Source: Acidimicrobiia bacterium
GTDB lineage: Bacteria > Actinomycetota > Acidimicrobiia > Spongiisociales > ZC4RG35
DNA: 64,000 nucleotides
Direction: 5' to 3'
NCBI GenBank assembly: GCA_050742015.1
Contig: JBOGEV010000281.1
Span: 6,141-70,140, forward strand
The position numbers and the translations under genes are program-made. Of the stretch, positions 38,695 through 49,849 are shown piece by piece. The notes under the pieces are model-generated. The model worked only from the letters and a program-made list of their open reading frames with translations. It was not told where the DNA came from and did not search any database. The first letter of the stretch is position 1; each line of letters opens with the position of its first letter.

Positions 38695-38740
38695 CGGGGG
38701 GGCATGGTTGCAGTGCGGGGTTGGTAGGGCGTATTGCTCC

Positions 38741-38752
38741 GCAAACGATTGC
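38741..38752. promoter_or_regulatory. LacI-type operator candidate GCAAACGATTGC
   Basis: Lies in the 78-bp divergent gap between the Mo-hydroxylase gene (start 38694, -) and the operon starting at 38773 (+). Confidence 0.6.
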
Positions 38753-38772
38753 CACCCTAGACTCCGCCGACG

Positions 38773-39759
38773 GTGGACACACGGCAGTCACGGCCCACTC
38801 TGGCGGTCCTCGGCACCCGCTTCGACGACTTCGAAGTCGAGCGTCGGGTGATCGGGGATGTCGACATCGTGTCCGGTCCGGGCCGGGACCAGGCCGAAGT
38901 GCTGCAGATCGCCTCCGGCTGCGATGTGATCCTGGCCGGGGCCGTCCCGATATTCGACACCATCACCCTCGAGCAGCTCGGTTGCCGGGGGATCGTCCGC
39001 CTCGGCGTCGGGGTGGAGACCATCGACCTCGACGCTGCGGAGCGGCTAGGGATGTGGGTGTGTCACGTCCCGGACTACGGAACGGAAGCGGTGGCCATCC
39101 ATACCGTGAGCCTGGTCCTCGCCTCGATACGACGGATCCCTATGTCGGACCGCCGCATTCGCACCGCCACCTGGGGATTGGGCGGGCTCCGTCCGCTCCA
39201 TCTCCCGGGAAGCCTGACGGTGGGTTTGGTCGGGTATGGCCGCATCGGCCGAAGGGTGGGGCAACTGCTGAGCGGCCTCGGCTTCGGCCCGATCCTGGTC
39301 GCCGACCCATTTCTCGGCCCCGAGGCCGACCTGGAGCCGGGTTGTGAGCTGGTTGGGCTCGAGCCGCTTCTGGCCGCCTCCGATATTGTCTCCCTGCACA
39401 CCCCGCCTGCCGGCGACGGGCCTTTGATCGGAGCCGCACAGTTGTCGCTGATGAAACCCGGCGCCGTCCTGATCAACACCGCCCGGGGGGCCCTGGTCGA
39501 CACCGGTGCACTCATCGACGCCCTGGCCGGCGGCGCCCCTGCGGTGGCGGCACTCGATGTCTTCCAACCCGAGCCACCCGACATGGCCGTCTTCGAAACG
39601 GTTTCCGATTCGGTGATCCTGACCCCGCACATGGCCTGGTACACCGAGGAGTCCGAGCTCGAGCTGCGGCAGAAGGGAGCAGCGGAGGCGAAGCGGATCA
39701 TCGAAGGCAGCACCCCTCTCCATCCGGTCGCCTCCCCCCGCCTGGAGCCGACCCGGTGA
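38773..39759 (+). CDS. D-isomer-specific 2-hydroxyacid dehydrogenase family protein
   Basis: ORF of 328 aa, GTG start. It has GLVGYGRIGRRVG (NAD binding), INTARGALVD and TPHMAWYT. Confidence 0.85.
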   Translation: MDTRQSRPTLAVLGTRFDDFEVERRVIGDVDIVSGPGRDQAEVLQIASGCDVILAGAVPIFDTITLEQLGCRGIVRLGVGVETIDLDAAERLGMWVCHVPDYGTEAVAIHTVSLVLASIRRIPMSDRRIRTATWGLGGLRPLHLPGSLTVGLVGYGRIGRRVGQLLSGLGFGPILVADPFLGPEADLEPGCELVGLEPLLAASDIVSLHTPPAGDGPLIGAAQLSLMKPGAVLINTARGALVDTGALIDALAGGAPAVAALDVFQPEPPDMAVFETVSDSVILTPHMAWYTEESELELRQKGAAEAKRIIEGSTPLHPVASPRLEPTR

Positions 39760-40514
39760 GCCGATCCATCTCCGACCTCACCGCCCCCGATGTCGCCGAG
39801 ATGATCTCTGAACGCGGGGTTGTGGTGATGCCTTTCGGGAGCATCGAGCAACACGGGCCCCATCTGCCATGCGGGACCGACATCATGGCCGCAGACCTGG
39901 TCACCATGGCCCTGGCCGACCGGCTGGCCGCCCTGATCGCGCCGGCCGGCCCTTACGGGGTCACACCCATCCACGCCGGGCACCCGGGAACGATCTCCCT
40001 GTCACGGGAGGTCTTCGAGGCATACGTGTCCAATGTGTGCGACGAGCTGGTCGGGCAGGGAGTGCGGGCCTTTGTGTTCGTCAACTGGCACGAGGGCAAC
40101 ATCGCCTCCCTCGATGCCGTCGCCACCGACGTCCAGAATCGCCATGGCGTGGTCGTGATCACCGCTCAGGCCTGTTACACCGCCCAACGGATCTATGCCG
40201 ACAAGGGCGGGGAATTGACCCATGGCGGAGGGATCGAGACACTCGCCGTGCTCGCCTCCGACCCGTCCCTGGCCCGCCTCGACCGGGTGACCGAGCCGAC
40301 CCGCCCCGAAGGGGCCGATGAGCTCGACGCCATGCGGCGATCGCGCGAGGTGTATGGCTACATCACCGATGTCACCGAGATCGCCGACGACGGCTGGTAC
40401 GGCAACCCCGGTTGGGCGAGCCAGGAGGAGGCAGACACTTTCGCCGAGCTTGTCGCCCAAGAGATCGAATATGCCGTCGAATCGATCCTGGCCATACGAA
40501 GGAGGGAACCTTGA
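39756..40514 (+). CDS. Creatininase-family amidohydrolase (paralogue 1)
   Basis: ORF of 252 aa. It has PFGSIEQHGPHLPCGTD and FVNWHEGN. It overlaps the upstream gene by 4 nt. Confidence 0.85.
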   Translation: MSRSISDLTAPDVAEMISERGVVVMPFGSIEQHGPHLPCGTDIMAADLVTMALADRLAALIAPAGPYGVTPIHAGHPGTISLSREVFEAYVSNVCDELVGQGVRAFVFVNWHEGNIASLDAVATDVQNRHGVVVITAQACYTAQRIYADKGGELTHGGGIETLAVLASDPSLARLDRVTEPTRPEGADELDAMRRSREVYGYITDVTEIADDGWYGNPGWASQEEADTFAELVAQEIEYAVESILAIRRREP

Positions 40515-40900
40515 CCGTGGTCCACGGTGATGAAATCGTCTATCAGGACCGTCCCACCCGACGTTCCGCCGACCCGTTCGCGGCGCCGGGACCGGGCGCA
40601 GCCAGCGCCCGTCAGGTGTTGCTGGACTACGTCCCGCGGCGGACCGCCCATATCCACCCTCACAGCGAGGAGGTCTACTACGTGATCCGGGGACACGGCG
40701 AGATTTGGGTCGATGGGGCGCGGCATCGGGTCCAAGCCGGAACGTGGGTTCGAATCCCGGCCCGGGCTCCACACGCCACCATGGCGGCCCCCGGTGAGCA
40801 GATGGAGCTCATCTGCTTTTTCCCTCACCCCGACCTCGAGGAGAACATCGAAGAACTGGACCTCGCCCTCGACGCACCTGGGGAGACCGAAGATGAATGA
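40511..40900 (+). CDS. Cupin domain protein
   Basis: ORF 40412..40900. I placed the start at TTG 40511, after GGAGGGA. It has HIHPHSEEVYYVIRGHGEIWVDG....IPARAPH cupin motifs. Confidence 0.75.
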   Translation: MTVVHGDEIVYQDRPTRRSADPFAAPGPGAASARQVLLDYVPRRTAHIHPHSEEVYYVIRGHGEIWVDGARHRVQAGTWVRIPARAPHATMAAPGEQMELICFFPHPDLEENIEELDLALDAPGETEDE

Positions 40901-41951
40901 TGTCGTCCGTTTGGCACCTATCGGGCTCGGTCGCTGGGCCCGGGTCCTTGCCCGCGGCGCCGGTCGGGGCACGCTCATCGAGCTGACGAGCTGCTTCTCC
41001 AGGTCCGCCGACTCCCGATCGGCCTTCCAGGAGGAATTCGGCATTGCCAGGTCGGCGAGCTCTCTCGACGAACTGCTCGCCGACCCCGAGATCGAAGGCG
41101 TCCTGGTCACGACCCCGAACGACACCCACAAGCAGGTGATCCTCGAGTGCCTGGACGCAGGTAAGGCGGTGTACACCGACAAGCCGATCGCCCACACGAT
41201 GGAGGATGCCGGAGAGATTGCCCGGGCCGCTGCCACGGCCGGGGTCCCCTTCGCCGTGGGTCACAGCGCACGGCGTCTCGGGGGTCATCGCGCAATGAGG
41301 GCTTGGCTCGACGAGGGGCGGATCGGCTCGGTGTCACTGGCAGAGGCCAATTTCTCCAACGAGAGGGGTCTCGAGCTCACCACCGACACCTGGAGGTTCT
41401 TCGCCGACAAGAGCCCGGGAGGGGCGCTGATCCAACTCGGCGTCCACCATGCCGACAATCTCCAGTACCTGCTCGGCCCGGTGGCCTCGGTCACCAGCCA
41501 TGCCCGCAAGCTCTACACCAACGCCGAGGTACCGGATGCGATCATGTCGATCCTCGAGTTCGAGTCCGGCCCGCTGGGCTACCTGGGCACGGGTTGGGCT
41601 TCGCCCGGGGTCTATCAGCTTCGTCTCCAGGGCACCGAGGCCAACCTGTTCTACGACCTGGACTTCAACAACTGGGACCAATCCCATCTGGTCGACGCGA
41701 AGAGCAGCCTGGTCAGCCAGGCCTACCGGCAGTCGGTGAGATCCCCGGTGGAGATCCCGAAGACTGACATGTTCCGGGAGCAGCTCGACGAGTTCGCACG
41801 TGCCATCAGGGGCCAGGATGAGATCGAAGTGGGGGCCGAAGAAGCGATACGAGCCCTGGCCGTGGTCCACGCCGCCCTCGAGTCGTCACGCCGCGGGGGT
41901 GCCGCCGTCGAACTGGCGCCGATGCTCGAAATGGCCGGGGCGCTCGGATGA
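40893..41951 (+). CDS. Gfo/Idh/MocA family oxidoreductase
   Basis: ORF 40713..41951; the start is ATG 40893 (MNDVVRLAPIGLGRWA). It has VLVTTPNDTHKQV and VYTDKPIA. Confidence 0.85.
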   Translation: MNDVVRLAPIGLGRWARVLARGAGRGTLIELTSCFSRSADSRSAFQEEFGIARSASSLDELLADPEIEGVLVTTPNDTHKQVILECLDAGKAVYTDKPIAHTMEDAGEIARAAATAGVPFAVGHSARRLGGHRAMRAWLDEGRIGSVSLAEANFSNERGLELTTDTWRFFADKSPGGALIQLGVHHADNLQYLLGPVASVTSHARKLYTNAEVPDAIMSILEFESGPLGYLGTGWASPGVYQLRLQGTEANLFYDLDFNNWDQSHLVDAKSSLVSQAYRQSVRSPVEIPKTDMFREQLDEFARAIRGQDEIEVGAEEAIRALAVVHAALESSRRGGAAVELAPMLEMAGALG

Positions 41952-43051
41952 GGGTCGACCCGGAAACGACCCGGACCCTGCACCACGCCGACCCCGAGGT
42001 CCAGGAGGTGCTCGACATCTGGATGGCCCGTTTTCTGGGCAGCCAGATCCCGTTGGGCGACATCACATCCACCCTCGACCGGATTGGCACCTGGCCCGAA
42101 TGGGGCCAGGAGTGGATGGCCACCGCCGCGGTCCACGAGGGGCTGGCCGAGGCGGCGTGGGACGAGGGGCGGCGGCTGTCGGCCGTGCCGGCGTTCCTGA
42201 CGGCCGCCCGTTGCTACCACATGGCCTACTTCCTCACCGTCCACGACGAGGACCTGCACCGCCGTGGCCTCGCCAAGATGGTCGAATGCCACGACCGCGT
42301 GCTGGAGCACCAAGAGCCCCCGGTGGAGAAGATCACGGTCCCTTTCCCCGACGGTGACCTGGCCGGGCTCCTCAGTGTCCCCAAGACCGAGACGCCGCCC
42401 CCTGTGGTGATCCTCCTTCCCGGGCTCGACTCGACGAAGGAGACCCGCCACGGTGGTCGGGGCTCCCTGATGAAGCGGGGCATGGCGGTTCTCAGCCTCG
42501 ATGGCCCGGGACAAGGCGAGGTCAGCCTTCGCTTGCCCATCCGCCACGACTACGAGGTGGTGATCGCCGCCGCAATCGACGAGCTCGAGCGACGGGCCGA
42601 CGTCGACGCCACCCGGGTGGGGCTGATCGGAGCCAGTCTCGGCGGGTACTACGCCTGCCGGGCTGCCGCATTCGAGCCCCGGGTGAGAGCTGCGGTGGCC
42701 AACTGCGGGCCGTACGAGTGGGGTGAGATCTATGACGAGCTACCCGGAGTCACCCGCGGGGCCTTTCGTCACTACTCGTGGTCGAAGAGTGAGGAGGAGG
42801 CCAGGGAACGCGCCGCCCTGCTCGATCTGACCGGTGTGGCGGAACGGATAACCGCGCCCCTGGTGGTGGTGCACGGGATGCTCGATCCACTGATCCCGGT
42901 CGACCATGCCCGGCGTATCGCCGCCGAGGCGGCAGACGCCACCCTCATCGAAATCGAGGACGGGACCCACGGTGGCGGCAACCTGTCATACACCTTCGAG
43001 CCGTGGGTGGAGGACTGGATGGCGCAGCACCTCGGGGGAAGGGTCGCCTGA
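41948..43051 (+). CDS. Alpha/beta hydrolase, FrsA / 2,6-dihydroxypseudooxynicotine-hydrolase-like (paralogue 1)
   Basis: ORF of 367 aa. It has a helical N-terminal cap (WGQEWMATAAVHEGLAEAAWDEG...YHMAYF), the nucleophile elbow GASLGG, and HGMLDP...DGTHG. Confidence 0.75.
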   Translation: MRVDPETTRTLHHADPEVQEVLDIWMARFLGSQIPLGDITSTLDRIGTWPEWGQEWMATAAVHEGLAEAAWDEGRRLSAVPAFLTAARCYHMAYFLTVHDEDLHRRGLAKMVECHDRVLEHQEPPVEKITVPFPDGDLAGLLSVPKTETPPPVVILLPGLDSTKETRHGGRGSLMKRGMAVLSLDGPGQGEVSLRLPIRHDYEVVIAAAIDELERRADVDATRVGLIGASLGGYYACRAAAFEPRVRAAVANCGPYEWGEIYDELPGVTRGAFRHYSWSKSEEEARERAALLDLTGVAERITAPLVVVHGMLDPLIPVDHARRIAAEAADATLIEIEDGTHGGGNLSYTFEPWVEDWMAQHLGGRVA

Positions 43052-44820
43052 TGGAGACCGTTTCGATGAATCGAGACGAGCACACATTCACCCGCAACAC
43101 CGATGCGATGACCGTGGACTATCAGGTGCCGGTCGAGATGAGCGACGGCACGGTGCTGCGGGCGGACGTGTTCTCCCCTCTCGAGGAGGGCGAGTACCCG
43201 GTAATCCTCAGCCACGGCGTCTACGCCAAGGGACTGGCGTTCAGCGGGCCGATCTACCGGATGCAATGGGAGAAGCTCCTGGCCAAGGACCCCACCGTGC
43301 TGGAGGGCTCCACCAACCGCTATCAGGCGTGGGAGGTGACCGACCCCGAGCGCTGGGTCCCCAACGGCTATCTGGTCGCACGCATCGACTCCCGTGGCGC
43401 CGGCTGGTCCCCCGGTGTCCTCTGGCCCCGCAACCCGCTCGAGTATGAGGACATGGCTGAGTCGGTGGAGTGGGCGGCGTCCCTGCCCTGGAGCAATGGC
43501 AAGGTCGGAATCATGGGCATTTCCTACTACGCGGTGATGGGATGGGCTGCGGCCGAGCGCCAGCCGGAGCATCTGGCCGCGCTCATTGCCTGGGAGGGCT
43601 TCACCGACCCCTACCGCGACGCCTATTTCCACGGGGGGATCCTCAGCGAGTTCACCAAGAAGTGGCAGGAGCGTCAGATCAACCCGATTCAGCACGGCCA
43701 GGGAGAACGGGCTCCCGTCGATCCCAATACCGGTCAATCGGTGGCCGGGCCGGTCACCCTGTCCGAGGAGGAGCTGGCCGAGAATCGGATCGAGTCGTTC
43801 CCGGAGATCAAGGCCCACCCTCTCTACGACCAATGGCATCGAGAGCGGGGAATCGACCTGGCCAAGGTCGAGGTGCCTCTCCTCTCCGCCGCCAACTGGG
43901 GCGGCCAAGGAATCCACCCCCGGGGCAACTTCAACGGCTTCGTCCACTCGTCGTCGGAGCACAAGTGGCTCGAAGCCCACGGTGACACCCACTGGACCCA
44001 TTTCTACTCCGGGTACGGGCGCGATCTGCAGAAGCGCTTCTTCGATCACTTCCTCAAGGGCGAGGACAACGGATTCGACCGGACTCCGAGGGTGCAGCTC
44101 AACATCCGCCGACCCGGGGAGCAGTTCGAGTGGCGGGGCGAGGAGGAGTGGCCTCTGGCCCGCACCCAGTGGACCGAATACCACCTGAGCCCGACCTCCA
44201 CCCTCGACACCACGCCCCCGACAGTGGCGGGCACCCTGAGCTATGAGGCGCTGGGCGAAGGTCTGTCCTTCTCCACTGCCCCCTTCCCCGAAGACGTCGA
44301 GATCACCGGGCCGATGGCCGCCAGGATCTTCGTCTCGTCGACGACCACCGACGCCGACCTGTTCCTCATCCTCCAACTCTTCGACCCCGACGGGTTGGAG
44401 GTCACCTTCGAAGGCTCGACCGATCCCAACACTCCCATCGCCAACGGCTGGCTGCGGGCCTCTCATCGGGCCCTGGACCCGGAGCGGAGCCGACCCTGGC
44501 AGCCCTACCACCCCCATGACCGAGTCGATCCGCTCGTGCCCGGCGAGATCTACCCCCTGGACATCGAGATCGTCCCCTCCTGCGTGGTGGTCCCCGCCGG
44601 ATACCGGCTGGCGCTTTGGGTTCGGGGCAAGGACTACGAGTACCGCGGTCCCTTGGACGAATACGGCAAGGACTTCTACTACGCCACCCGGGGGACCGGG
44701 GGAATGACCCACACCGATCCCGACGACCGGCCCGCCGAGGTCTTCGGCGGCGAGGTGACGGTCCATCTCGGCCCCGATCACCCTTCCCACCTCCTGCTCC
44801 CTGTCATACCCCCTCGATGA
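43051..44820 (+). CDS. CocE/NonD family hydrolase (S15 X-Pro dipeptidyl-peptidase fold)
   Basis: ORF 43003..44820. ATG 43051 overlaps the previous TGA by 1 nt. It has VEMSDGTVLRADVFSP, DSRGAGWSPG, GISYYA and a C-terminal jelly-roll domain. Confidence 0.85.
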   Translation: METVSMNRDEHTFTRNTDAMTVDYQVPVEMSDGTVLRADVFSPLEEGEYPVILSHGVYAKGLAFSGPIYRMQWEKLLAKDPTVLEGSTNRYQAWEVTDPERWVPNGYLVARIDSRGAGWSPGVLWPRNPLEYEDMAESVEWAASLPWSNGKVGIMGISYYAVMGWAAAERQPEHLAALIAWEGFTDPYRDAYFHGGILSEFTKKWQERQINPIQHGQGERAPVDPNTGQSVAGPVTLSEEELAENRIESFPEIKAHPLYDQWHRERGIDLAKVEVPLLSAANWGGQGIHPRGNFNGFVHSSSEHKWLEAHGDTHWTHFYSGYGRDLQKRFFDHFLKGEDNGFDRTPRVQLNIRRPGEQFEWRGEEEWPLARTQWTEYHLSPTSTLDTTPPTVAGTLSYEALGEGLSFSTAPFPEDVEITGPMAARIFVSSTTTDADLFLILQLFDPDGLEVTFEGSTDPNTPIANGWLRASHRALDPERSRPWQPYHPHDRVDPLVPGEIYPLDIEIVPSCVVVPAGYRLALWVRGKDYEYRGPLDEYGKDFYYATRGTGGMTHTDPDDRPAEVFGGEVTVHLGPDHPSHLLLPVIPPR

Positions 44821-44833
44821 GAAAGGACCTGAC

Positions 44834-46423
44834 ATGACCCAGACCGCCGACTTCGTGGTGGCCGGCGCCGGTCACAACAGTCTCATCACCGCTGCCTACC
44901 TGGCCCGTGCCGGATACGAGGTGATCGTGCTCGACGCCCGCGCCGAGGCGGGCGGGGGCGCCGCCACCGAGGAGCTGTTGCTGCCGGGGTATCACCACGA
45001 CAGCTGCTCGACGGGCCACACCCTCATCCTGGTCAACCCGGTCCTGAGCCGGGACGAGCTCGGCCTGATCTCCGATTACGGGCTGACCTACATCGATCCC
45101 GACCCGGTCGCCAACCTCACCTTCCCCGACGGCGAGAACCTCACCATGTGGCTCGACCTGGATCGGACCCTGGATGAGATCCGCAGGTTCTCCCCTACCG
45201 ACGCCGAGACCTACCGGCGGATGCTCGACGAGTTCGAGGACGTGAAGGGGATCTACGGGGCCAACCGGTTCGTACCCCTCGGCTACGGGCCCTCCCTCGA
45301 TGAGGCCCTGGCCGAGCATCCCCGCGGCTCCACCTGGCGGCGACGCAACGTGTTGTCGGCCTGGGACGTGATCAGACGGGAGTTCGAGAGCCGACACATC
45401 CAGGCCTTCATGTCCTGGATGGCAATCCAGACTCTCCAGCCCATCGACTCGCCCGGGTCGGGCTACCTTGCCTATTCGCTCGTGGGCGGTCGGCAGAGAC
45501 GAAGCTGGTCGATGCCACGCGGCGGCTCGGGAGAGCTGGCCAAGGCTCTCGTCGCTGCGATCGAGGCCCAGAACGGGACCGTTGTCACGAACACCCTGGT
45601 CACCTCCCTCATCACCGAGAACGGGCGGTGTGTCGGAGTGGAGACCGAATCTGGCGAGCAGTACCGCGCCCGCACCGGGGTGGTGTCCACGATTCACGTC
45701 AAGAGCCTGGTCGACATGGCGCCGCCCGACCTGTGGGGAGAGGACTTCCTCTACGGGATCGACACCTACGACGAAGGTATCTCGTGCTTCGCCTCCTTCT
45801 ACTGCACCACCGAGCCCCCGGTGTACAACGGGACCGAGGCGGTCAGCGTGGTCTCGGCGGGCTCCGCTCCCTGGCCGGAAGACCTGATCGAGTTCACTGA
45901 TGGAGTGCGTCGGGGTCGGCTCCACCGGCCCGGGACCTTCCTCCTCTTCGCCACCCCGAGCGTGGCCGACCCGACCCGTGCCCCGGAAGGTGGTCACACG
46001 CTGAAGATCCTGAGCATGGCCCCATATCAGCCCCCGGACGGGCACACCGACTGGGACGAGTTCAAGGATGAACTCGCCGCCGAGCACTTCGCCGCATTGC
46101 AGAGATGCGCCCCGAACATGACCGACGCCAAGGTGCTCGACCGGCTCGCTCGCAGCCCGGTCGACATCGAGCGGGCCAACCCCCATATGTGGCACGGGAC
46201 GATGCATGGGGGGGACCGGGGGCTTGCATTTGGCGGCGCCCAGAGACCGGTTCCGGGTTGGGCCCAGCACCGGATGCCCATTCCCGGGCTGTATCAGACC
46301 GGGGCAACCACCCATCCCGGAGGGTCGATCACCGGGGCGCCGGGGCGCAATGCTGCCATCGTCATCCTCGACGATCTCGGGATGAAGCTGGATGAGGTGG
46401 TCCGGGTCGGCGCTGCCGTCTGA
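44834..46423 (+). CDS. NAD(P)/FAD-dependent oxidoreductase, phytoene-desaturase (CrtI) family
   Basis: ORF of 529 aa. It has the FVVAGAGHNSLITAAYLARAGYEVIVLDA dinucleotide-binding motif and the C-terminal LYQTGATTHPGGSITGAPG. Confidence 0.85.
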   Translation: MTQTADFVVAGAGHNSLITAAYLARAGYEVIVLDARAEAGGGAATEELLLPGYHHDSCSTGHTLILVNPVLSRDELGLISDYGLTYIDPDPVANLTFPDGENLTMWLDLDRTLDEIRRFSPTDAETYRRMLDEFEDVKGIYGANRFVPLGYGPSLDEALAEHPRGSTWRRRNVLSAWDVIRREFESRHIQAFMSWMAIQTLQPIDSPGSGYLAYSLVGGRQRRSWSMPRGGSGELAKALVAAIEAQNGTVVTNTLVTSLITENGRCVGVETESGEQYRARTGVVSTIHVKSLVDMAPPDLWGEDFLYGIDTYDEGISCFASFYCTTEPPVYNGTEAVSVVSAGSAPWPEDLIEFTDGVRRGRLHRPGTFLLFATPSVADPTRAPEGGHTLKILSMAPYQPPDGHTDWDEFKDELAAEHFAALQRCAPNMTDAKVLDRLARSPVDIERANPHMWHGTMHGGDRGLAFGGAQRPVPGWAQHRMPIPGLYQTGATTHPGGSITGAPGRNAAIVILDDLGMKLDEVVRVGAAV

Positions 46424-46438
46424 ACGGCTGGGCGGCTT

Positions 46439-46450
46439 GCAATCGATTTC
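46439..46450. promoter_or_regulatory. LacI-type operator candidate GCAATCGATTTC
   Basis: Lies in the 64-bp gap upstream of 46488. It differs at one position from the perfect palindrome at 55320-55331. Confidence 0.5.
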
Positions 46451-46487
46451 GCTATCGTCGGCATCACCCGGCCGATGAGGTGACCGA

Positions 46488-47621
46488 ATGACCCTGGATC
46501 TTGCTTTCGCCCCCAACGAGGACCCGTTCGTCGTGGCCCACGGCGGCTTCTACCGTCGCTGGTTCTCCATGATCGACGATGTCGCCGAGTTGGAGGACAC
46601 CGTCGCCAAGTTGCAGGGAACAACTCAGGACCTGTGGGTGCCGGTTTGGCATGAGGTGGGGAAACGTCACGAGGACGAGGGCGACAAGCTGGAGGCAGGG
46701 GGTGACTTCGAGGGGTCACGTCGGGCCTTTCTCCAGGCCAAGACCTACTACGCCATCGGCCGCTTCCCCGGCGAGGTGAGCCCTGTCAAGCGTCAGATCA
46801 GCGACGACTGCGCACGCGCCTATCGCAAGGCCTGTGCCCATCTCGACCCCCCCGTCGAGATCGTGGACTTCGAGCATCAGGGTAAGACGATCCGTGCCCA
46901 TTTCCGGTCGCCGGTCTCGGACACGCCGGTTGCGGCGGTGCTCGTCATGTGCGGGGCCGACGTGTTCAAAGAGGACCGGGGCTGGGCCCAGGAACTGTGC
47001 ATCGACAATGGCATGGCCTCCCTGGTGATGGACGGGCCGGCGTCGGGAGAGAACCCGTTCCCCTGGTCTCCGGAATCGGTGTCGGCCTGGGAGGCGGCAG
47101 TCGACTATCTGGCGGGCCGCCCTGAGGTGGACGGACAGCGTGTCGGCGCCTTCGGGATCAGCCGGGGCGGGTACTCGGTGATGCAGCTTGCCGGGGTTGC
47201 CCCCGAGAAGCTCAAGGCGGTGGTGGCCAACGCCGGTCACCCGTTCGGATATGTGATGCCCGATGACGAGTTGGCGGAGTTCGTCAGGGTGCGCAACGAA
47301 CGGGCCACATGGCGGTTCGGAGCGCCCGATGACCCGCCTTCGTTCGAGGGCACGAGCGTGGAGAAGGAGAGGGCCGACTTCAAGGCCTGGGCACTGTCCG
47401 AGCAGGGCATCCTCGACAACATCACGATGCCGGTGCTGATGATCAACGGCAAACTCGACCATCTGGCCCCGATCGGCAACATCTACTTCATGCTCGAGAC
47501 CGGGCCTGCCACCGGCAAGGAGGCCCGGGTCTATGCCGACGCCGGGCACTGCGCCTTCAAGTACTACGACCATTGGGCCCCCTCCAGCTTCACCTGGTTG
47601 GCGGAGAAGCTCGGCGCCTGA
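46488..47621 (+). CDS. Alpha/beta hydrolase, FrsA-like (paralogue 2)
   Basis: ORF of 377 aa. Its architecture matches 41948..43051: a helical cap (WHEVGKRHEDEGDKLEAGG...YYAIGRF), GISRGG, and NGKLDH...DAGHC. Confidence 0.75.
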   Translation: MTLDLAFAPNEDPFVVAHGGFYRRWFSMIDDVAELEDTVAKLQGTTQDLWVPVWHEVGKRHEDEGDKLEAGGDFEGSRRAFLQAKTYYAIGRFPGEVSPVKRQISDDCARAYRKACAHLDPPVEIVDFEHQGKTIRAHFRSPVSDTPVAAVLVMCGADVFKEDRGWAQELCIDNGMASLVMDGPASGENPFPWSPESVSAWEAAVDYLAGRPEVDGQRVGAFGISRGGYSVMQLAGVAPEKLKAVVANAGHPFGYVMPDDELAEFVRVRNERATWRFGAPDDPPSFEGTSVEKERADFKAWALSEQGILDNITMPVLMINGKLDHLAPIGNIYFMLETGPATGKEARVYADAGHCAFKYYDHWAPSSFTWLAEKLGA

Positions 47622-47675: not shown

Positions 47676-48686
47676 TCAGCCGATCGCGGCGAGGATGCGG
47701 GCGACGTTGCCCCCGATGATCATGGCCCGTTGCTCGTCGGTGAGACCGGGGATGGAGCCGACTGTCGCCACCGGCTCCGGGTCGCCCATCTCGAAGGGGT
47801 AGTCGCTGCCCAAGACCACCTGCTCCACACCTGCCCACTCAACCAGGTACTCGAGGGCCCGTGGGGAGTGGAGGACGGTGTCGTAGTAGAGCCGCCGGGC
47901 CAAATCTTCTGGCGGGATCGTGATGTGCTCCGCCGTCATGTGGGGCACCGCGTCGAACCCGCGCTGCATCCGGCCGACCTGATAGGGGATGAAGCCACCG
48001 CCGTGCACCACACAGACGACCAGATCCGGGTGACGCTCGATGACCCCGCTGAAGAGCAGGTGAGCCACGGCGATGGTGCTCTCGGTGGGCCGCCCGACCA
48101 TGTTGTCGAGGAAGTTGCGCTTCAGGTCGACCCCGGGCAAGGGGTTGCATGGGTGGATCAGGACCAGGCAGTGCAGGGCGGCAGCCGCCTCCCAGAACGG
48201 GTCCAGACCGGCCTGGTCCAGGTCGACGCCATCGACGGTGGTGGCGATCTCGACTCCGACCAACCCGAGCTCCTCGACGGCGAAACCCAGCTCCTCGGCA
48301 GCCAGGTCGGGGCTTTGCAGGGGGACGGTCCCGAGACCGAGTAGGCGGCCGGGGTGCCGGGACGTCTCTTCGGCGATGATCTGGTTGAACCGCCGGGAGT
48401 AGGACGCACCCATCTCCGGCTGCAGGGCGTACGCGGTGAGATCGACCCAGCTCGAGATGATCTGGGTGTCCACGCCCGTGGCGTCCATCGCGGCCAGCCT
48501 GGCGTCCATGTCGCCCAGGATCGCCCGGAAAGGAGGCAGCCGCACCCGGCCGTCGAGGAGTGCCGACTCACCTTTCTCGTCCGTGATCACCTCGATGCCG
48601 AAGCGGTGCCCGTCGGCCCGCAGCAGATCGATCAACGCCTCCGGGATGAAATGGGCATGCACGTCATAGGTGGGAGTGGAGCTCAC
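47676..48686 (-). CDS. Amidohydrolase-2 family protein (ACMSD-like metal-dependent hydrolase/decarboxylase)
   Basis: ORF 47676..48833. GTG 48686 overlaps the upstream stop (GTGA). It has YDVHAHFIPE (HxH), VLIHP and VVHGGG...DYPFE. Confidence 0.8.
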   Translation of the reverse strand: MSSTPTYDVHAHFIPEALIDLLRADGHRFGIEVITDEKGESALLDGRVRLPPFRAILGDMDARLAAMDATGVDTQIISSWVDLTAYALQPEMGASYSRRFNQIIAEETSRHPGRLLGLGTVPLQSPDLAAEELGFAVEELGLVGVEIATTVDGVDLDQAGLDPFWEAAAALHCLVLIHPCNPLPGVDLKRNFLDNMVGRPTESTIAVAHLLFSGVIERHPDLVVCVVHGGGFIPYQVGRMQRGFDAVPHMTAEHITIPPEDLARRLYYDTVLHSPRALEYLVEWAGVEQVVLGSDYPFEMGDPEPVATVGSIPGLTDEQRAMIIGGNVARILAAIG

Positions 48687-49849
48687 CAGGCAGCCCTCGT
48701 CATCCGGGTGTCCAGCTCGGGCTCCGCAACCAGGATGTAGACCCCACCGTTGATCCTGTCGGTGACGTAGACGGTGTGGTCCTCGGCGACGAAGACGTCG
48801 TTGATCTGACAGGCGACCTGGCCGGGCGGGCATTCCGGTATCCAGTAGGCGATCTCGACGGGTTGATCTGGGTCGGCCAGATCGAAGACCCGCAGCCCGG
48901 CATTGAAGTAGGTGACGAACATGATCTCCTGGCTGCGGTAGCTCTTCGGGCGGTTCTCGTGCAGGCAGTGCGATCCGAAGCGGAGCCCCCGGTCGCAGAA
49001 GTCCCCCTCGGGGACGGGGCAGATGGAGCGCACGAAGGGTGAGGTCTCATCCGAGATGTCGACCACGCGCATCATGTGGGCCGGGCCGTCGCAGCCGTCG
49101 GTGAGCGCCTCGTCGGTGACCACGACCAGATTGCGGTCGGGTAGGGGCAGACAGGTATGGGTATGACCGCCGATCTCCCAGCCGAGCCGTGAGATCGTGG
49201 TCGGGTTGGACAGGTCGGAGATGTCGAGGATCGCCATGCCGCTATCCCACAGGCCCAGATAGGCGCGGTCCCCGTGGACCATCGCATGATGCACCAGGCG
49301 GTCCTCGCCCGGGTCCCAGTCCGGTGTCTCCCCACCGCCCACCCACATCCCAGGCCACCACCAGCGGCCCACTTCGACGGGGTCGCTCGGGTCGGAGAGG
49401 TCGACGATGAGCCAGATCCGGCCGGTGAAGCCCTCAGGCGTCGCCGAGACATAGGCATAACGCCCCCCTTCGTACACGATCCGGTGAACGCCCCTCCCTC
49501 CGGTGTCGAAGAACCCGATCCGCCGGGGCTCGAAGGGATCGGACAACTCGTAGATGGCCACCCCGACCGGGGCCGGCCCATCGCTGCGAAAGAGCTCGTG
49601 ATTGACCAGGAGCAGGCCGTCGGCGATCTGCACCTTGTGGGTGTGGGAGCCCGGCGGAGCCTCCCACTGCCGCACGATCTTCGGCGAGGTCGGATCGGAT
49701 ATGTCGAGGATCGAGGTTCCCATCCCACTCGGGCCGAAGTGGCCGACGTAGAGGACCTCGCCGAACGGCATCACCTGCATCCCGTCGCCAAAACCGCCCA
49801 GATCGGAGTGCCCGATCAGGGTGAAACCACTGGAATCTTCGGGGTGCAA
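48683..49849 (-). CDS. LVIVD-repeat beta-propeller protein
   Basis: ORF 48683..49930. It has repeated motifs of the type ILDISDPTSP, IYELSDPFEP, IVDLSDPSDP, ILDISDLSNP, VVDISDETSP and VFDLADPDQP. I tentatively placed the start at TTG 49849, after GGAGGG. The maximal ORF would run into the operator at 49927. Confidence 0.7.
   Translation of the reverse strand: MHPEDSSGFTLIGHSDLGGFGDGMQVMPFGEVLYVGHFGPSGMGTSILDISDPTSPKIVRQWEAPPGSHTHKVQIADGLLLVNHELFRSDGPAPVGVAIYELSDPFEPRRIGFFDTGGRGVHRIVYEGGRYAYVSATPEGFTGRIWLIVDLSDPSDPVEVGRWWWPGMWVGGGETPDWDPGEDRLVHHAMVHGDRAYLGLWDSGMAILDISDLSNPTTISRLGWEIGGHTHTCLPLPDRNLVVVTDEALTDGCDGPAHMMRVVDISDETSPFVRSICPVPEGDFCDRGLRFGSHCLHENRPKSYRSQEIMFVTYFNAGLRVFDLADPDQPVEIAYWIPECPPGQVACQINDVFVAEDHTVYVTDRINGGVYILVAEPELDTRMTRAAW

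What the first reader, a model, noticed from the sequence alone, without database searches (positions are those of the whole stretch)
38773..47621. Translationally coupled 8-gene operon with an unusual enzyme mix and no recognisable pathway
Seen directly. The consecutive + strand genes overlap by 4, 4, 8, 4 and 1 nt, followed by gaps of 13 and 64 nt. In order they are:
- D-2-hydroxyacid dehydrogenase
- creatininase-family amidohydrolase
- cupin
- Gfo/Idh/MocA oxidoreductase
- FrsA-like alpha/beta hydrolase
- CocE/NonD hydrolase
- CrtI-like FAD oxidoreductase
- a second FrsA-like hydrolase

The operon is flanked by a Mo-hydroxylase large subunit, an ACMSD-like amidohydrolase, an LVIVD propeller, an MFS transporter, two creatinase-like proteins and an F420 LLM oxidoreductase.

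Inference: this combination (ring or amide hydrolases, hydroxylase, dehydrogenases) looks like catabolism of an N-heterocyclic or cyclic-amide/ester compound. It does not match any pathway I can name, including the creatinine, nicotine, hydantoin or ectoine routes. It is a candidate undescribed catabolic system.
Basis: inference. Interest (0 to 1): 0.68.

Follow-up and report, generated by a model that had tools for sequence, protein, structure and literature searches.

The report
Conserved LacI-controlled catabolic gene island
The eight genes are real and are kept together in many soil actinobacteria, but they are only one part of a larger set of about 25 genes switched by one repressor-binding DNA motif, and these genes most likely break down a still-unidentified small ring-shaped compound.

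Summary
All eight + strand genes, their 4/4/8/4/1-nt overlaps, their 13- and 64-nt gaps and their family assignments are confirmed.

What the tools add:
- **Invariant core.** Across 79 related loci, from uncultured soil and cave Acidimicrobiia to cultured Nocardioides caldifontis and Mycolicibacterium agri, only four genes are always present: D-2-hydroxyacid dehydrogenase, creatininase-family metallohydrolase, 3His/1Glu cupin and Gfo/Idh/MocA dehydrogenase. The four downstream genes (three hydrolases and the CrtI-like flavoprotein, g5-g8) come and go.
- **Shared operator.** A 12-bp LacI-type operator, GCAA[A/T]CG[A/T]TTGC, lies in the -35/-10 spacer upstream of gene 1. It recurs at seven more intergenic sites between 34 and 61 kb, one of them in the 64-nt gap before gene 8. 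The unit is therefore 7 + 1 genes inside a regulon of about 25 genes with two LacI paralogues and a second creatininase module. The same operator precedes the orthologous genes in other genomes.
- **No known pathway.** No member reaches an NCBIfam equivalog cut-off, and no paper describing the cluster was found.

The substrate remains unknown. My best guess, at low-to-moderate confidence, is an oxidise-then-hydrolyse route for a cyclic polyol, lactone or lactam. In this route the DHPON-hydrolase/Ayg1-type C-C hydrolases and the ACMSD-like decarboxylase serve as accessory trimming enzymes.

The parts
33340..34275 (-). Beta-hydroxyacid dehydrogenase (HIBDH / tartronate-semialdehyde-reductase-like). 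Regulon member, divergent from LacI1.
   Evidence: Pfam NAD_binding_2 and NAD_binding_11. NCBIfam tartro_sem_red 158 bits, below cut-off. Start revised to GTG 34275, giving 311 aa as in relatives. The operator lies upstream in 19 of 20 loci.
34336..34347 (.). LacI operator O1, GCAAACGATTGT, between HIBDH and LacI1.
34432..35475 (+). LacI-family repressor LacI1.
   Evidence: Pfam LacI HTH plus Peripla_BP_3. Syntenic in close relatives.
35472..36428 (+). Alpha/beta hydrolase (S9 / DLH / BAAT_C-like), overlapping LacI1 by 4 nt.
   Evidence: Syntenic in 24 loci.
36397..38694 (-). Orphan molybdenum-hydroxylase large subunit carrying the form-II CoxL signature SYRGAGR. Divergent from gene 1 and sharing its operator.
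   Evidence: Pfam Ald_Xan_dh_C plus MoCoBD_1/2; NCBIfam glyceraldehyde dehydrogenase alpha 599 bits against cut-off 790. Motif seen. Operator upstream in 24 of 26 loci. No small or medium subunit was found among the window genes scanned.
38734..38763 (+). Promoter of the g1-g7 operon: -35 TTGCTC (38734-38739), LacI operator O2 GCAAACGATTGC (38741-38752) in the spacer, -10 TAGACT (38758-38763). The GTG start at 38773 makes the mRNA nearly leaderless.
   Evidence: The same -35/operator/-10 layout is seen in 16 of 17 related loci inspected. Operator present within -200..+30 of the g1 orthologue in 59 of 71 loci.
38773..39759 (+). g1, D-isomer-specific 2-hydroxyacid dehydrogenase (core).
   Evidence: GxGxxG, the catalytic Arg and the catalytic His are present.
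39756..40514 (+). g2, creatininase-family binuclear metallohydrolase (core). A new subfamily, not an orthologue of creatininase, MftE or IolN.
   Evidence: Pfam 183 bits. NCBIfam MftE 95/172, creatininase 93/235, IolN 51/245, score/cut-off. The residues I take to be the metal ligands and a catalytic-type His are invariant in 30 sequences. AF2 pLDDT 83.5; Foldseek top hit is creatininase, TM 0.75, 24% identity.
40511..40900 (+). g3, monocupin with a full 3His-1Glu metal site: H47, H49, E53, H88 (core).
   Evidence: Present in almost all loci; it follows Gfo in the Nocardioides-type order.
40893..41951 (+). g4, Gfo/Idh/MocA NAD(P) dehydrogenase (core). The most conserved gene: 82-87% identity in near loci, 63-74% in far loci.
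   Evidence: The best solved relatives are the uncharacterised 3db2 (277 bits) and then 1,5-anhydro-D-fructose reductase (122 bits).
41948..43051 (+). g5, FrsA-like serine hydrolase of the DHPON-hydrolase/AntI clade (accessory).
   Evidence: Best PDB hit 2JBW, 2,6-dihydroxypseudooxynicotine hydrolase, 129 bits. GxSxG, Asp and His are present. Absent from some loci.
43051..44820 (+). g6, CocE/NonD (S15) hydrolase (accessory).
   Evidence: TIGR00976 249 bits. PDB 3ib3 286 bits, cocaine esterase about 81 bits. Absent from several loci.
44834..46423 (+). g7, CrtI / amine-oxidase-type FAD oxidoreductase (accessory).
   Evidence: Missing in L002, L003, L036 and L038.
46439..46450 (.). LacI operator O3, GCAATCGATTTC, in the g7-g8 gap.
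   Evidence: The same site lies 46-65 nt upstream of Frs2 orthologues, including loci where Frs2 sits elsewhere on the other strand.
46488..47621 (+). g8, second FrsA-like hydrolase of the Ayg1p/DHPON-hydrolase clade, separately operator-controlled.
   Evidence: PDB Ayg1 74 bits, 2JBW 52 bits. 28% identical to g5.
47676..48686 (-). ACMSD-like Amidohydro_2 decarboxylase, translationally coupled to the LVIVD gene.
   Evidence: 198 bits to human ACMSD. Start revised. Recurs next to LVIVD with an operator in distant loci.
48683..49849 (-). Cytoplasmic LVIVD beta-propeller protein, possibly a metallohydrolase.
   Evidence: Pfam LVIVD. Weak hit to the haloalkylphosphorus hydrolase propeller. I saw no signal peptide by eye in the translation; no prediction tool was run.
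49927..49938 (.). LacI operator O4 between LVIVD and MFS.
49942..51156 (+). MFS transporter.
51317..51328 (.). LacI operator O5 upstream of M24a.
   Evidence: Orthologous sites in L009, L010, L016, L024, L030 and L034.
51343..52500 (+). Creatinase_N/M24 protein lacking the canonical M24 metal ligands (creatinase-like).
52528..53679 (-). Second M24 creatinase-like protein.
53693..53704 (.). LacI operator O6 between M24b and LLM.
53756..54604 (+). F420-dependent LLM oxidoreductase (TIGR03560 family).
   Evidence: 263 bits against a cut-off of 231. Adjacent to the core in 13 distant loci.
55320..55331 (.). LacI operator O7, the perfect palindrome GCAATCGATTGC.
55426..57986 (+). Two Dpp/Opp-type ABC ATPases.
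   Evidence: Syntenic in L085 and L086.
58009..61114 (-). Second module: creatininase paralogue (60326-61114, 38% identical to g2), Zn-ADH (59277-60329), SnoaL-like (58796-59272), TauE/SafE permease (58009-58749).
   Evidence: Conserved as a block in L085 and L086.
61182..61193 (.). LacI operator O8 upstream of the second creatininase.
61233..62282 (-). LacI2, 40% identical to LacI1 with a near-identical recognition helix.
62298..63985 (-). Dpp/Opp-type permeases. The binding-protein gene is expected beyond the window end.
   Evidence: SBP_bac_5 precedes them in L085 and L086.

Best explanation
**Shown**
- The eight genes belong to a conserved catabolic regulon of soil Actinomycetota that carries LacI-type operator sites.
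- In this window two LacI paralogues are encoded, and the operator GCAA[A/T]CG[A/T]TTGC occurs at eight intergenic sites between 34 and 61 kb.
- Upstream of gene 1 the site fills the -35/-10 spacer, so a bound repressor would block RNA polymerase.
- The invariant heart of the regulon is D-2-hydroxyacid dehydrogenase, creatininase-family metallohydrolase, 3His/1Glu cupin and Gfo/Idh/MocA dehydrogenase.
- Lineage-variable add-ons are g5-g8, the orphan Mo-hydroxylase, the ACMSD-like decarboxylase, the LVIVD propeller, the creatinase-like M24 proteins, the F420 LLM enzyme, and a second creatininase/Zn-ADH/SnoaL/TauE module.

**Inferred mechanism**
1. A small cyclic, oxygen-rich compound enters through the MFS or Dpp-type transporter and releases the repressors. 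The compound is most likely sugar- or cyclitol-derived and may carry ester or amide substituents.
2. A ring hydroxyl is oxidised to a ketone by Gfo/Idh/MocA. In the second module the Zn-ADH does this.
3. The creatininase-family enzyme opens the activated ring hydrolytically. Either it cuts the C-C bond of a cyclic 1,3-dione, as IolN does, or it cuts a lactam C-N bond, as creatininase does.
4. The cupin (or the SnoaL protein) isomerises the keto-acid.
5. The 2-hydroxyacid and beta-hydroxyacid dehydrogenases feed the products into central metabolism.
6. The DHPON-hydrolase/Ayg1-type serine hydrolases, the CocE/NonD hydrolase, the flavoprotein and the ACMSD-like decarboxylase remove or cleave side groups, such as beta-dicarbonyl, ester and carboxyl groups. 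This would widen the range of related substrates.
For: **Regulon**
- The window holds 8 operator sites at up to 2 mismatches (12 strand-hits). Shuffles give 2.8 +/- 1.6, with a maximum of 6.
- All eight sites are intergenic once gene starts are revised, although only about 4% of the region is intergenic.
- In 79 loci the site lies within -200..+30 of the orthologue start as follows:
  - g1: 59 of 71
  - Mo-hydroxylase: 24 of 26
  - HIBDH: 19 of 20
  - Frs2: 12 of 31
  - internal genes g4, g5, g6, g7: 0 of 72, 0 of 40, 0 of 21, 0 of 23
- The loci hold 187 sites in 1.33 Mb, against 3 after shuffling.
- The operator sits between -35 and -10 in Acidimicrobiia and in Nocardioides-type loci.
- LacI1 and LacI2 share the recognition helix.

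**Core versus accessory genes**
- The synteny tables separate the invariant core from the variable genes.
- Independent gene calls agree.

**Chemistry**
- The creatininase family includes the C-C hydrolase IolN (NCBIfam NF041098 matches g2 and the paralogue).
- g5 and g8 are closest to the C-C hydrolases DHPONH, AntI and Ayg1p.
- Distant loci add an LRA6-like 2,4-diketo-3-deoxy-acid hydrolase at 237 bits, a UxaA-type dehydratase and an Ldh_2 protein.
- g4 is closest to sugar and cyclitol dehydrogenases.
- The creatininase metal ligands (my mapping from the creatininase motifs; no structure-based alignment was made), the cupin metal ligands and the serine-hydrolase triads are intact.
Against: - No substrate, effector, transcript or enzyme activity has been observed. 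No RNA run holds the locus.
- g2 scores no closer to IolN (51 bits) than to creatininase or MftE (93-95 bits). Three of the four characterised family functions are C-N hydrolyses.
- Several regulon members point to a nitrogen-containing or aromatic intermediate rather than a plain polyol: the ACMSD-like decarboxylase at 198 bits, the creatinase-like M24 proteins, the Dpp-type importer, the amine-oxidase-type flavoprotein, the Mo-hydroxylase, and a GrdB-like selenoprotein in relatives.
- Sulfur-related neighbours are not explained: TauE, rhodanese, an NMT1-type ABC system and a YeiH-like exporter.
- Operator function is inferred from sequence only.
Confidence: 0.45

Rival explanations
1. One reading: catabolism of an N-heterocycle or cyclic amide with nicotine-like logic. 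The Mo-hydroxylase hydroxylates a ring, and the amine-oxidase-type flavoprotein opens a saturated N-ring. A DHPON-hydrolase-type enzyme then cuts the acyl side chain. The cupin dioxygenase and the creatininase-like deformylase/lactamase open the ring, and the ACMSD-like enzyme decarboxylates.
For: - g5 is most similar to 2,6-dihydroxypseudooxynicotine hydrolase, at 129 bits.
- The Mo-hydroxylase shares the gene-1 operator.
- g7 hits Amino_oxidase.
- The amidohydrolase gives 198 bits to ACMSD.
- Creatininase, ArfB and MftE are C-N hydrolases.
- The M24 proteins lack metal ligands, as creatinase does.
Against: - The Mo enzyme is a form-II CoxL-like orphan with no FeS or FAD subunits nearby.
- The Mo enzyme, g5 and g7 are absent from many loci that keep the core.
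- LacI regulators and Gfo/Idh/MocA enzymes are typical of carbohydrate-like substrates.
- No flavin monooxygenase, Rieske oxygenase or NicX-type dioxygenase is present.
- No equivalog of any known N-heterocycle pathway enzyme was hit.
Confidence: 0.2
2. Catabolism of sugar-amino-acid conjugates of the opine, Amadori or Maillard type, including their lactam and lactone forms. Peptide/opine-type ABC import is followed by lactam or lactone opening by the creatininase-like and propeller hydrolases. The polyol part is oxidised by Gfo or the Zn-ADH. The C-N bond is cleaved by the flavoprotein, and in relatives by the GrdB-like selenoprotein. Amide cleavage falls to the M24 and S15 enzymes.
For: - Dpp/Opp-type transporter genes carry the operator and flank the second module.
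- LacI repressors occur together with Gfo/Idh/MocA, two creatininase-like enzymes, three M24 and two S15 proteins.
- A GrdB-like Sec protein shares an operator with Frs2 in relatives.
- From my own knowledge: mannityl-opine catabolism in Agrobacterium uses LacI-type MocR/MocS, Opp-like transporters, an oxidoreductase and lactam/lactone hydrolases.
Against: - No amadoriase/DAO-type oxidase, fructosamine kinase or deglycase family was found.
- Nocardioides-type loci use an NMT1-type ABC system or an MFS transporter and lack the peptidase-like genes.
- The ACMSD-like and C-C hydrolase members are unexplained.
Confidence: 0.12
3. Degradation of plant, lichen or fungal polyphenols or polyketides such as flavonoid glycosides, depsides and acyl-phloroglucinols. 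Esterases and C-C hydrolases split depside or acyl bonds. The cupin acts as a quercetinase-type dioxygenase, and the ACMSD-like enzyme decarboxylates a hydroxybenzoate. A reduced ring (cyclic 1,3-dione) is then opened hydrolytically.
For: - The cupin's best solved relatives are quercetin 2,3-dioxygenases, though only weakly, with no matched stretch significant on its own.
- Ayg1p, AntI and DHPONH act on aryl-ketone polyketides.
- ACMSD-family members include hydroxybenzoate decarboxylases.
- A SnoaL-like protein is present.
- Gfo/Idh/MocA relatives include the C-glycoside 3-oxidase DgpA, at 70 bits.
Against: - There are no aromatic-ring hydroxylases, no intradiol or extradiol dioxygenases, and no beta-ketoadipate genes.
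- The known dihydrophloroglucinol ring hydrolase belongs to the 'cyclase' family, not the creatininase family (PMC10470551).
- The esterase and C-C hydrolase genes are not part of the invariant core.
Confidence: 0.1
4. Catabolism of an organosulfonate that passes through sulfolactate. The split UxaA-type enzyme would act as a SuyAB-like sulfo-lyase, Ldh_2 as a ComC-like sulfolactate dehydrogenase, and the LRA6-like hydrolase would release sulfolactate from a 6-sulfo-diketo acid. TauE or YeiH would export sulfite or sulfate.
For: - Nocardioides-type loci carry an NMT1-type ABC system, a split GD_AH (386 aa plus 103 aa), an Ldh_2 protein, an LRA6-like hydrolase and a YeiH-like exporter.
- The window has TauE in the second module.
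- Relatives have rhodanese and OsmC next to an operator.
Against: - No sulfoquinovosidase, Xsc, or known enzyme of the sulfo-ED, sulfo-EMP or sulfo-SMO routes was hit.
- The SuyAB assignment rests only on subunit sizes and on memory.
- These genes are absent from the window's own lineage.
- TauE and NMT1 are broad families.
Confidence: 0.07
5. The genes are neighbours by chance or by assembly error and share no function.
For: None found.
Against: - Order and overlaps are conserved in dozens of independently assembled genomes.
- A shared operator is conserved across classes.
Confidence: 0.01

Closest known systems
Thermotoga maritima oxidative inositol route (IolG Gfo/Idh/MocA dehydrogenase, IolM second dehydrogenase, IolN creatininase-family 3-dehydro-scyllo-inosose hydrolase, IolO epimerase)
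   Same: - It combines a Gfo/Idh/MocA dehydrogenase with a creatininase-family ring-opening hydrolase. From memory, it also includes a Zn-type alcohol dehydrogenase.
- It follows the same oxidise-then-hydrolyse logic.
- Its product is a keto-aldonate that needs an isomerase or epimerase, a reductase and an altronate-type dehydratase. Distant loci here carry a UxaA-type dehydratase. The IolO function is taken from PMC12632266.
   Different: - g2 and its paralogue score 51 and 49 bits against an IolN cut-off of 245.
- g4 scores 111 bits against an IolG cut-off of 355.
- There is no TIM-barrel IolO and no kinase.
- A cupin and a D-2-hydroxyacid dehydrogenase are present instead.
- The regulator is LacI-type rather than ROK-type (PMC3750489).
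- The primary paper could not be read.
Arthrobacter nicotinovorans nicotine (pyridine) pathway: Mo-hydroxylases NDH/KDH, 6-hydroxynicotine oxidase, 2,6-dihydroxypseudooxynicotine hydrolase
   Same: A Mo-hydroxylase large subunit, an amine-oxidase-superfamily flavoprotein and a DHPONH-like C-C hydrolase (129 bits to 2JBW) occur together.
   Different: - Only an orphan form-II CoxL-like large subunit is present.
- Identity to DHPONH is low.
- These three genes are dispensable in many loci that keep the core.
- No 2,6-dihydroxypyridine hydroxylase is present.
Creatinine degradation (creatininase CrnA, then creatinase, then sarcosine oxidase/reductase)
   Same: Creatininase-fold enzymes (Foldseek TM 0.75) are co-regulated with creatinase-like M24 proteins that lack metal ligands. 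Relatives add a GrdB-like selenoprotein.
   Different: - The creatininase equivalog cut-off is missed: 93 and 102 bits against 235.
- There is no sarcosine oxidase, urease or N-methylhydantoinase.
- The dehydrogenases and the cupin have no role in that pathway.
LacI/GalR-family catabolic regulons with a palindromic CG-centred operator (for example PurR, CcpA, GalR types)
   Same: - A repressor with a LacI HTH plus a periplasmic-binding-protein fold.
- A 12-bp palindrome with central CG, overlapping promoters of divergent catabolic and transport operons, and auto-adjacent to the regulator genes.
   Different: - The effector is unknown.
- There are two paralogous repressors that appear to share one operator type.
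- The regulated genes are mostly hydrolases and dehydrogenases of unknown specificity rather than a recognisable sugar pathway.
Non-phosphorylative 6-deoxyhexose route (L-rhamnose/L-fucose: dehydrogenase, lactonase, dehydratase, 4-dehydrogenase, LRA6 diketo-acid hydrolase)
   Same: Distant loci pair the core with an LRA6-like FAA-family hydrolase (237 bits), a sugar-acid dehydratase family enzyme and an Amidohydro_2 protein.
   Different: - The LRA6 cut-off (500 bits) is not reached.
- The Amidohydro_2 protein is ACMSD-like, not lactonase-like.
- These genes are absent from the window's own lineage.

Membership tests
Translationally coupled operon | Same-strand genes with overlapping or abutting stop and start codons. 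| tested here: met
   Overlaps of 4, 4, 8, 4 and 1 nt and a 13-nt gap for g1-g7. The same overlaps appear in the independent gene calls of L001-L003.
Translationally coupled operon | A single transcription unit covering all eight genes. | tested here: inconclusive
   A conserved operator sits in the 64-nt gap before g8, and Frs2 is relocated with it in other genomes. No RNA data exist. No convincing terminator was found.
LacI/GalR repressor regulon | A regulator with an N-terminal LacI HTH and a C-terminal periplasmic-binding-protein fold. | tested here: met
   LacI1 and LacI2 both show this architecture.
LacI/GalR repressor regulon | A palindromic operator with central CG, over-represented and located in promoter regions of the regulated genes. 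| tested here: met
   8 sites against 2.8 expected, all intergenic. The site lies in the -35/-10 spacer.
LacI/GalR repressor regulon | Operator conserved upstream of orthologous genes in other genomes. | tested here: met
   59 of 71 (g1), 24 of 26 (Mo-hydroxylase) and 19 of 20 (HIBDH), against 0 for internal genes.
LacI/GalR repressor regulon | Repressor binds the operator and is released by a small-molecule effector. | not testable with these tools
   Needs EMSA or thermal shift.
Creatinine pathway (creatininase CrnA) | The protein reaches the creatininase equivalog score. | tested here: not met
   TIGR04448: 93.3 bits (g2) and 101.9 bits (paralogue) against a cut-off of 235. The fold is shared.
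Creatinine pathway (creatininase CrnA) | Binuclear metal site residues are present. | tested here: met
   E31, H33, D42, H112, E113 and H156 are invariant in 30 sequences. Their identification as the creatininase metal-site residues is my reading of the conserved motifs, not a structural alignment.
Thermotoga-type inositol route | An IolN equivalog (3-dehydro-scyllo-inosose hydrolase). | tested here: not met
   NF041098: 50.8 and 48.7 bits against a cut-off of 245.
Thermotoga-type inositol route | An IolG equivalog. | tested here: not met
   TIGR04380: 111 bits against a cut-off of 355.
Thermotoga-type inositol route | An IolO-type TIM-barrel epimerase in the cluster. | tested here: not met
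   No such family appeared in any Pfam scan of the window or the loci.
Nicotine pyridine pathway | A three-subunit Mo-hydroxylase (large, FAD and 2Fe-2S subunits). | tested here: not met
   Only a large subunit is present. No Fer2_2 or CO_deh_flav family occurs in the window.
Nicotine pyridine pathway | A DHPON hydrolase orthologue. | tested here: inconclusive
   The best solved relative is DHPONH at 129 bits, but the similarity is low and no curated model exists to set a threshold.
Ectoine catabolism | A DoeA equivalog. | tested here: not met
   41-50 bits against cut-offs of 575-613.
Kynurenine / 2-nitrobenzoate route (ACMSD) | An ACMSD-like decarboxylase. | tested here: met
   198 bits to human ACMSD over 325 residues.
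Kynurenine / 2-nitrobenzoate route (ACMSD) | A 3-hydroxyanthranilate dioxygenase and an aminomuconate-semialdehyde dehydrogenase nearby. | tested here: not met
   The cupin does not hit the 3-HAO family, and there is no Aldedh in the window regulon.
F420-dependent LLM oxidoreductases (TIGR03560) | The protein reaches the subfamily cut-off. | tested here: met
   262.7 bits against 231.4.

The most novel reading that the evidence does not exclude
A widespread and sometimes duplicated regulon of uncultured soil Acidimicrobiia and other Actinomycetota encodes a so-far-undescribed pathway for an abundant but unrecognised soil metabolite. The metabolite could be, for example, a sugar- or cyclitol-derived lactam or a sugar-amino-acid conjugate. 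In this pathway a new creatininase subfamily would open the ring. DHPON-hydrolase/Ayg1-type enzymes would carry out catabolic retro-Claisen C-C cleavage. In some lineages a short GrdB-like UxxC selenoprotein would take part under aerobic conditions.
Probability: 0.2. Interest if true: 0.75.

Novelty: new variant of a known kind. Interest (0 to 1): 0.5.

Why it matters
- **Ecology.** Acidimicrobiia are abundant, almost uncultured soil bacteria whose carbon sources are poorly known. A deeply conserved and sometimes duplicated regulon marks a substrate that matters to them.
- **A practical handle.** The operator and the two LacI repressors allow effector screening. Two cultured carriers, Nocardioides caldifontis YIM 730233 and Mycolicibacterium agri CCUG 37673, make genetics possible.
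- **Enzymology.** Solving the pathway would assign functions to a new creatininase subfamily, to cytoplasmic LVIVD propellers, to orphan form-II CoxL enzymes and to bacterial DHPONH/Ayg1-type hydrolases. All of these are large families with few or no known reactions.
- **Caveat.** Uncharacterised catabolic clusters built from known superfamilies are common, so the finding is useful rather than startling.

Tried and rejected
- **Dihydrophloroglucinol cyclohydrolase as a creatininase-family precedent.** I recalled this wrongly. The paper places the enzyme in the 'cyclase' family (PMC10470551).
- **Literature.** Seven full-text searches used combinations of creatininase, cupin, MocA, LacI, 2-hydroxyacid dehydrogenase, LVIVD and IolN. 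None found a description of this cluster or a function for cytoplasmic LVIVD proteins. The primary Thermotoga IolN paper is not held.
- **Transcription evidence.** Only cave, soil and rhizosphere DNA runs hold the locus. No RNA run does.
- **Plasmid collection.** There was one distant hit, a Haloarcula plasmid with an M24, creatininase and aldehyde dehydrogenase neighbourhood. It was informative only for the M24-creatininase pairing.
- **Cupin structure.** The single-sequence AF2 model had pLDDT 54, so I did not use it for a fold search.
- **g2 structure.** The Foldseek search returned only creatininases and structural-genomics relatives, which adds nothing on substrate.
- **Promoter and terminator consensus scan.** The counts were at background level.
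- **ABC transporter at 28.6-33.3 kb and the adjacent histidine kinase and response regulator.** They are not part of the system: there is no operator even at 3 mismatches, and they are not syntenic.
- **Threonine-synthase-like gene that recurs near the island.** It passes the ThrC equivalog cut-off and is probably housekeeping.

Full report
**1. The observation**

The window is about 66% G+C, so codon-position GC separates real genes from shadow ORFs. Eight + strand ORFs between 38773 and 47621 are intact, and seven have GC3 of 0.82-0.86 (0.68 for the cupin frame).
- With the cupin starting at TTG 40511 (ribosome-binding site GAAGGAGGG) and the Gfo gene at ATG 40893, the junctions are overlaps of 4, 4, 8, 4 and 1 nt.
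- Catalytic or ligand motifs are present in all eight proteins:
  - the GxGxxG motif with the Arg and His of the 2-hydroxyacid dehydrogenase
  - what I read as the creatininase metal ligands (mapped from conserved motifs, not from a structural alignment)
  - the 3His-1Glu site of the cupin
  - the GxSxG nucleophile elbows of the three serine hydrolases
  - the FAD motif

**2. Is the adjacency meaningful?**

- The creatininase-like protein has more than 1,100 homologues at E <= 1e-20. The best 120 are 71-99% identical, and those carrying a source name are uncultured Acidimicrobiia or Actinomycetota.
- Gene calls on three long contigs show the same gene order with the same small overlaps.
- A scan of species-representative genomes gave 79 loci. 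A tblastn table of 23 window proteins against them, together with an all-against-all clustering of their ORFs, shows the following.
  - The four genes 2-hydroxyacid dehydrogenase, creatininase-like, cupin and Gfo/Idh/MocA are present in essentially every locus. This holds down to 58-60% identity in cultured Nocardioides caldifontis (L066) and Mycolicibacterium agri (L074), where the cupin follows the Gfo gene.
  - The rest of the '8-gene operon' is variable. All eight genes occur in about 15 loci of the closest relatives. The CrtI-like gene is missing in L002, L003, L036 and L038. CocE and CrtI are missing in L009 and L077. Everything after the first FrsA-like gene is missing in L010, L016, L024, L030 and L034. 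The first FrsA-like gene is missing in L006, L008 and L011.
  - In more distant Acidimicrobiia the second FrsA-like gene, the ACMSD-like gene, the LVIVD gene and the F420 LLM gene sit next to the core, but in other orders and orientations.
- So the adjacency is not fortuitous. The conserved unit is a 4-gene core with modular additions.

**3. A shared operator defines the real unit**

- Reading the 79-bp region between the Mo-hydroxylase gene and gene 1, I found GCAAACGATTGC, a CG-centred near-palindrome typical of LacI operators. Nearly the same sequence lies between the beta-hydroxyacid dehydrogenase and LacI genes.
- A search of the whole 64-kb window with up to 2 mismatches gives 12 strand-hits at 8 sites. 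Dinucleotide-preserving shuffles give 2.8 +/- 1.6, with a maximum of 6.
- Every site lies in an intergenic or divergent promoter region once four over-long ORF calls are trimmed to the lengths seen in relatives. Only about 4% of the region is intergenic.
- The eight sites are:

| Position | Location |
|---|---|
| 34336 | HIBDH / LacI1 |
| 38741 | Mo-hydroxylase / gene 1 |
| 46439 | the 64-nt gap before gene 8 |
| 49927 | LVIVD-ACMSD-like / MFS |
| 51317 | upstream of M24a |
| 53693 | M24b / F420 LLM |
| 55320 | upstream of the Dpp-type ATPases |
| 61182 | upstream of a second creatininase paralogue |

- The last site heads a second module of creatininase paralogue (38% identical to g2), Zn-ADH, SnoaL-like protein and TauE. 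This module lies next to a second LacI gene (40% identical to LacI1, near-identical recognition helix) and Dpp-type permeases.
- This second module is syntenic in two genomes. In one of them it lies about 4 kb from the first module on the same 2.9-Mb contig.
- Across the 79 loci the operator (up to 1 mismatch) lies within -200..+30 of the orthologue start at these rates:

| Gene | Loci with operator |
|---|---|
| gene 1 | 59 of 71 |
| Mo-hydroxylase | 24 of 26 |
| HIBDH | 19 of 20 |
| Frs2 | 12 of 31 |
| g4 (internal) | 0 of 72 |
| g5 (internal) | 0 of 40 |
| g6 (internal) | 0 of 21 |
| g7 (internal) | 0 of 23 |

- In total there are 187 sites in 1.33 Mb, against 3 after shuffling.
- The operator travels with Frs2, the ACMSD-like gene, the LVIVD gene, extra Gfo genes, M24 genes and transporter operons wherever these lie.
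- Aligned upstream regions show the operator exactly between a -35 element (TTGACx or TTGCTC) and a -10 element (TAnnnT). This holds in both Acidimicrobiia and Nocardioides-type loci.
- In the window the -10 TAGACT ends 9 nt before the GTG of gene 1, so the mRNA is nearly leaderless.
- This is the classic layout for repression by promoter occlusion. It is inferred from sequence, not measured.

**4. What the proteins are closest to**

None reaches an NCBIfam equivalog cut-off.
- **Creatininase-like g2.** It scores 95 bits (MftE), 93 (creatininase) and 51 (IolN) against cut-offs of 172, 235 and 245. Its AF2 model (pLDDT 83.5) matches creatininase structures at TM 0.75 and 24% identity. It is a new subfamily.
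- **FrsA-like proteins g5 and g8.** They are closest to C-C bond hydrolases: 2,6-dihydroxypseudooxynicotine hydrolase (129 bits) and AntI for g5, and Ayg1p (74 bits) for g8.
- **CocE/NonD protein.** It is closest to an uncharacterised family member, 3ib3.
- **Flavoprotein g7.** It is only distantly related to CrtI.
- **Gfo enzyme g4.** It is closest to the uncharacterised 3db2 and then to 1,5-anhydro-D-fructose reductase and glucose-fructose oxidoreductase.
- **Flank Amidohydro_2.** It is a convincing ACMSD relative at 198 bits.
- **LVIVD protein.** I saw no signal peptide by eye in its translation. It weakly resembles a propeller phosphotriesterase.
- **Mo-hydroxylase.** It carries the form-II CoxL signature SYRGAGR. 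It has no FeS or FAD partner among the window genes scanned.
- **M24 proteins.** They lack the canonical metal ligands, as creatinase does.
- **Nocardioides/Mycolicibacterium-type loci.** Here the operator also precedes an NMT1-type ABC operon that ends in an FAA-family hydrolase. That hydrolase is most similar to 2,4-didehydro-3-deoxy-L-rhamnonate hydrolase (237 bits). Next to the operon are a split UxaA-type dehydratase, sometimes an Ldh_2 dehydrogenase, and an FAD/ferredoxin/2-oxoacid:acceptor oxidoreductase set.

**5. How it most likely works**

Shown:
- This is a conserved catabolic regulon with LacI-type operator sites, a 4-gene core and modular accessory genes.

Inferred:
- The recurring theme is carbonyl-activated hydrolysis. 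Several NAD(P) and F420 dehydrogenases can turn ring hydroxyls into ketones: Gfo, Zn-ADH, 2-hydroxyacid dehydrogenase, beta-hydroxyacid dehydrogenase and LLM.
- An unusual number of members belong to families whose characterised representatives cut bonds next to carbonyls:
  - IolN in the creatininase family
  - DHPONH, AntI and Ayg1p
  - the LRA6-type diketo-acid hydrolase
  - the ACMSD-type decarboxylases of vinylogous beta-keto acids
- I therefore favour the following route.
  1. Uptake.
  2. Oxidation of a cyclic polyol-like compound.
  3. Metal-dependent ring opening by the creatininase-like enzyme.
  4. Isomerisation by the cupin or the SnoaL protein.
  5. Hydroxy-acid processing.
- The serine hydrolases, the flavoprotein and the decarboxylase would deal with substituted or conjugated forms.
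- I give the regulon description about 0.9, the chemical logic about 0.35, and the combined statement 0.45.

Points against:
- Three of the four known creatininase-family reactions are C-N hydrolyses.
- Many members have a 'nitrogen' flavour: the M24 proteins, the Dpp importer, the amine-oxidase-type flavoprotein, the ACMSD-like enzyme, the Mo-hydroxylase, and a GrdB-like selenoprotein in relatives.
- A set of sulfur-related neighbours has no explanation.
- The rival substrate classes are listed separately with their tests: N-heterocycle, sugar-amino-acid conjugate, polyphenol and sulfonate.

**6. Comparison with known systems, and novelty**

- The closest in logic is the Thermotoga IolG/IolM/IolN/IolO inositol route, but all its equivalog tests fail here.
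- The nicotine, creatinine, ectoine and kynurenine pathways each share one or two family-level members and fail their defining tests (see the membership table).
- As a kind of system, a LacI-controlled catabolic island, this is ordinary. Its composition and its presumed pathway are undescribed as far as curated models (NCBIfam, June 2026) and the searchable literature show.
- I rate it a new variant of a known kind, with interest 0.5.

**7. Limits**

- There is no expression or biochemical evidence.
- Gene neighbourhoods were limited to +/-10 kb.
- All profile-search and PDB-sequence-search quotas were used, so the two giant ORFs upstream and a few small ORFs remain unannotated.

Noticed in passing
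L002 17749-18525, L014 17719-18600, L021 17620-18420, L055 9328-10209, L067 17686-18558 (not in the window): Relatives carry a short GrdB-like gene (Pfam GRDB positions 211-344) with a conserved in-frame TGA in the motif VPG-U-PMCHRS, and conserved sequence continues after it. It is probably a UxxC selenoprotein of about 260-290 aa. It is divergent from the second FrsA-like gene, with the LacI operator between them.
   Followed up: partly
window 22016-25104: SelA (L-seryl-tRNA selenium transferase) and SelB are encoded here, so this Acidimicrobiia genome uses selenocysteine. No selenoprotein gene was identified in the window itself.
   Followed up: no
window 58009-62282: A second, paralogous module of LacI2, creatininase paralogue, Zn-ADH, SnoaL-like protein and TauE lies under the same operator type. 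It is flanked by a Dpp-type ABC importer split on both sides.
   Followed up: yes
window 36397-38694: This is an orphan form-II CoxL-type Mo-hydroxylase large subunit (SYRGAGR) with no 2Fe-2S or FAD subunit genes in the window. In L002 small ORFs of 122, 108 and 80 aa with no Pfam hit lie beside its orthologue.
   Followed up: partly
L025 (tandem), L029 and L039 (same MAG), L052 and L083 (same MAG): The cluster is duplicated in some genomes. L025 has a tandem repeat of HIBDH, hydrolase, Mo-hydroxylase and g1-g4. One MAG carries two full copies on different contigs.
   Followed up: no
window 51343-53679: Both Creatinase_N/M24 proteins have substitutions at the canonical M24 metal-ligand positions (D to E, D to Q, E to Q). 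This suggests creatinase-like chemistry that does not depend on metal.
   Followed up: partly
window 4756-8778 and 8843-16906: Two very large + strand ORFs (1340 and 2687 aa) with coding-type GC3 were not examined.
   Followed up: no
window 27149-33323: A histidine kinase, a nearby response regulator (26756-27118) and a CUT1-type ABC transporter (UgpC/MalK-like ATPase) lie next to the island. They have no operator and are not syntenic in relatives.
   Followed up: yes
L010, L016, L024, L025, L029, L031, L032, L037, L039: Several Microflora Danica (MFD) MAGs labelled 'uncultured Acidobacteriota bacterium' carry this island with 73-77% identity and the same synteny as Acidimicrobiia MAGs. The record labels may be wrong.
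   Followed up: no
L084 (Haloarcula ordinaria plasmid NZ_CP119790.1, 152990-156789): A 41%-identical creatininase-family gene sits next to an M24 metallopeptidase gene and an aldehyde dehydrogenase gene in a haloarchaeon. The creatininase-like/M24 pairing therefore recurs across domains.
   Followed up: no
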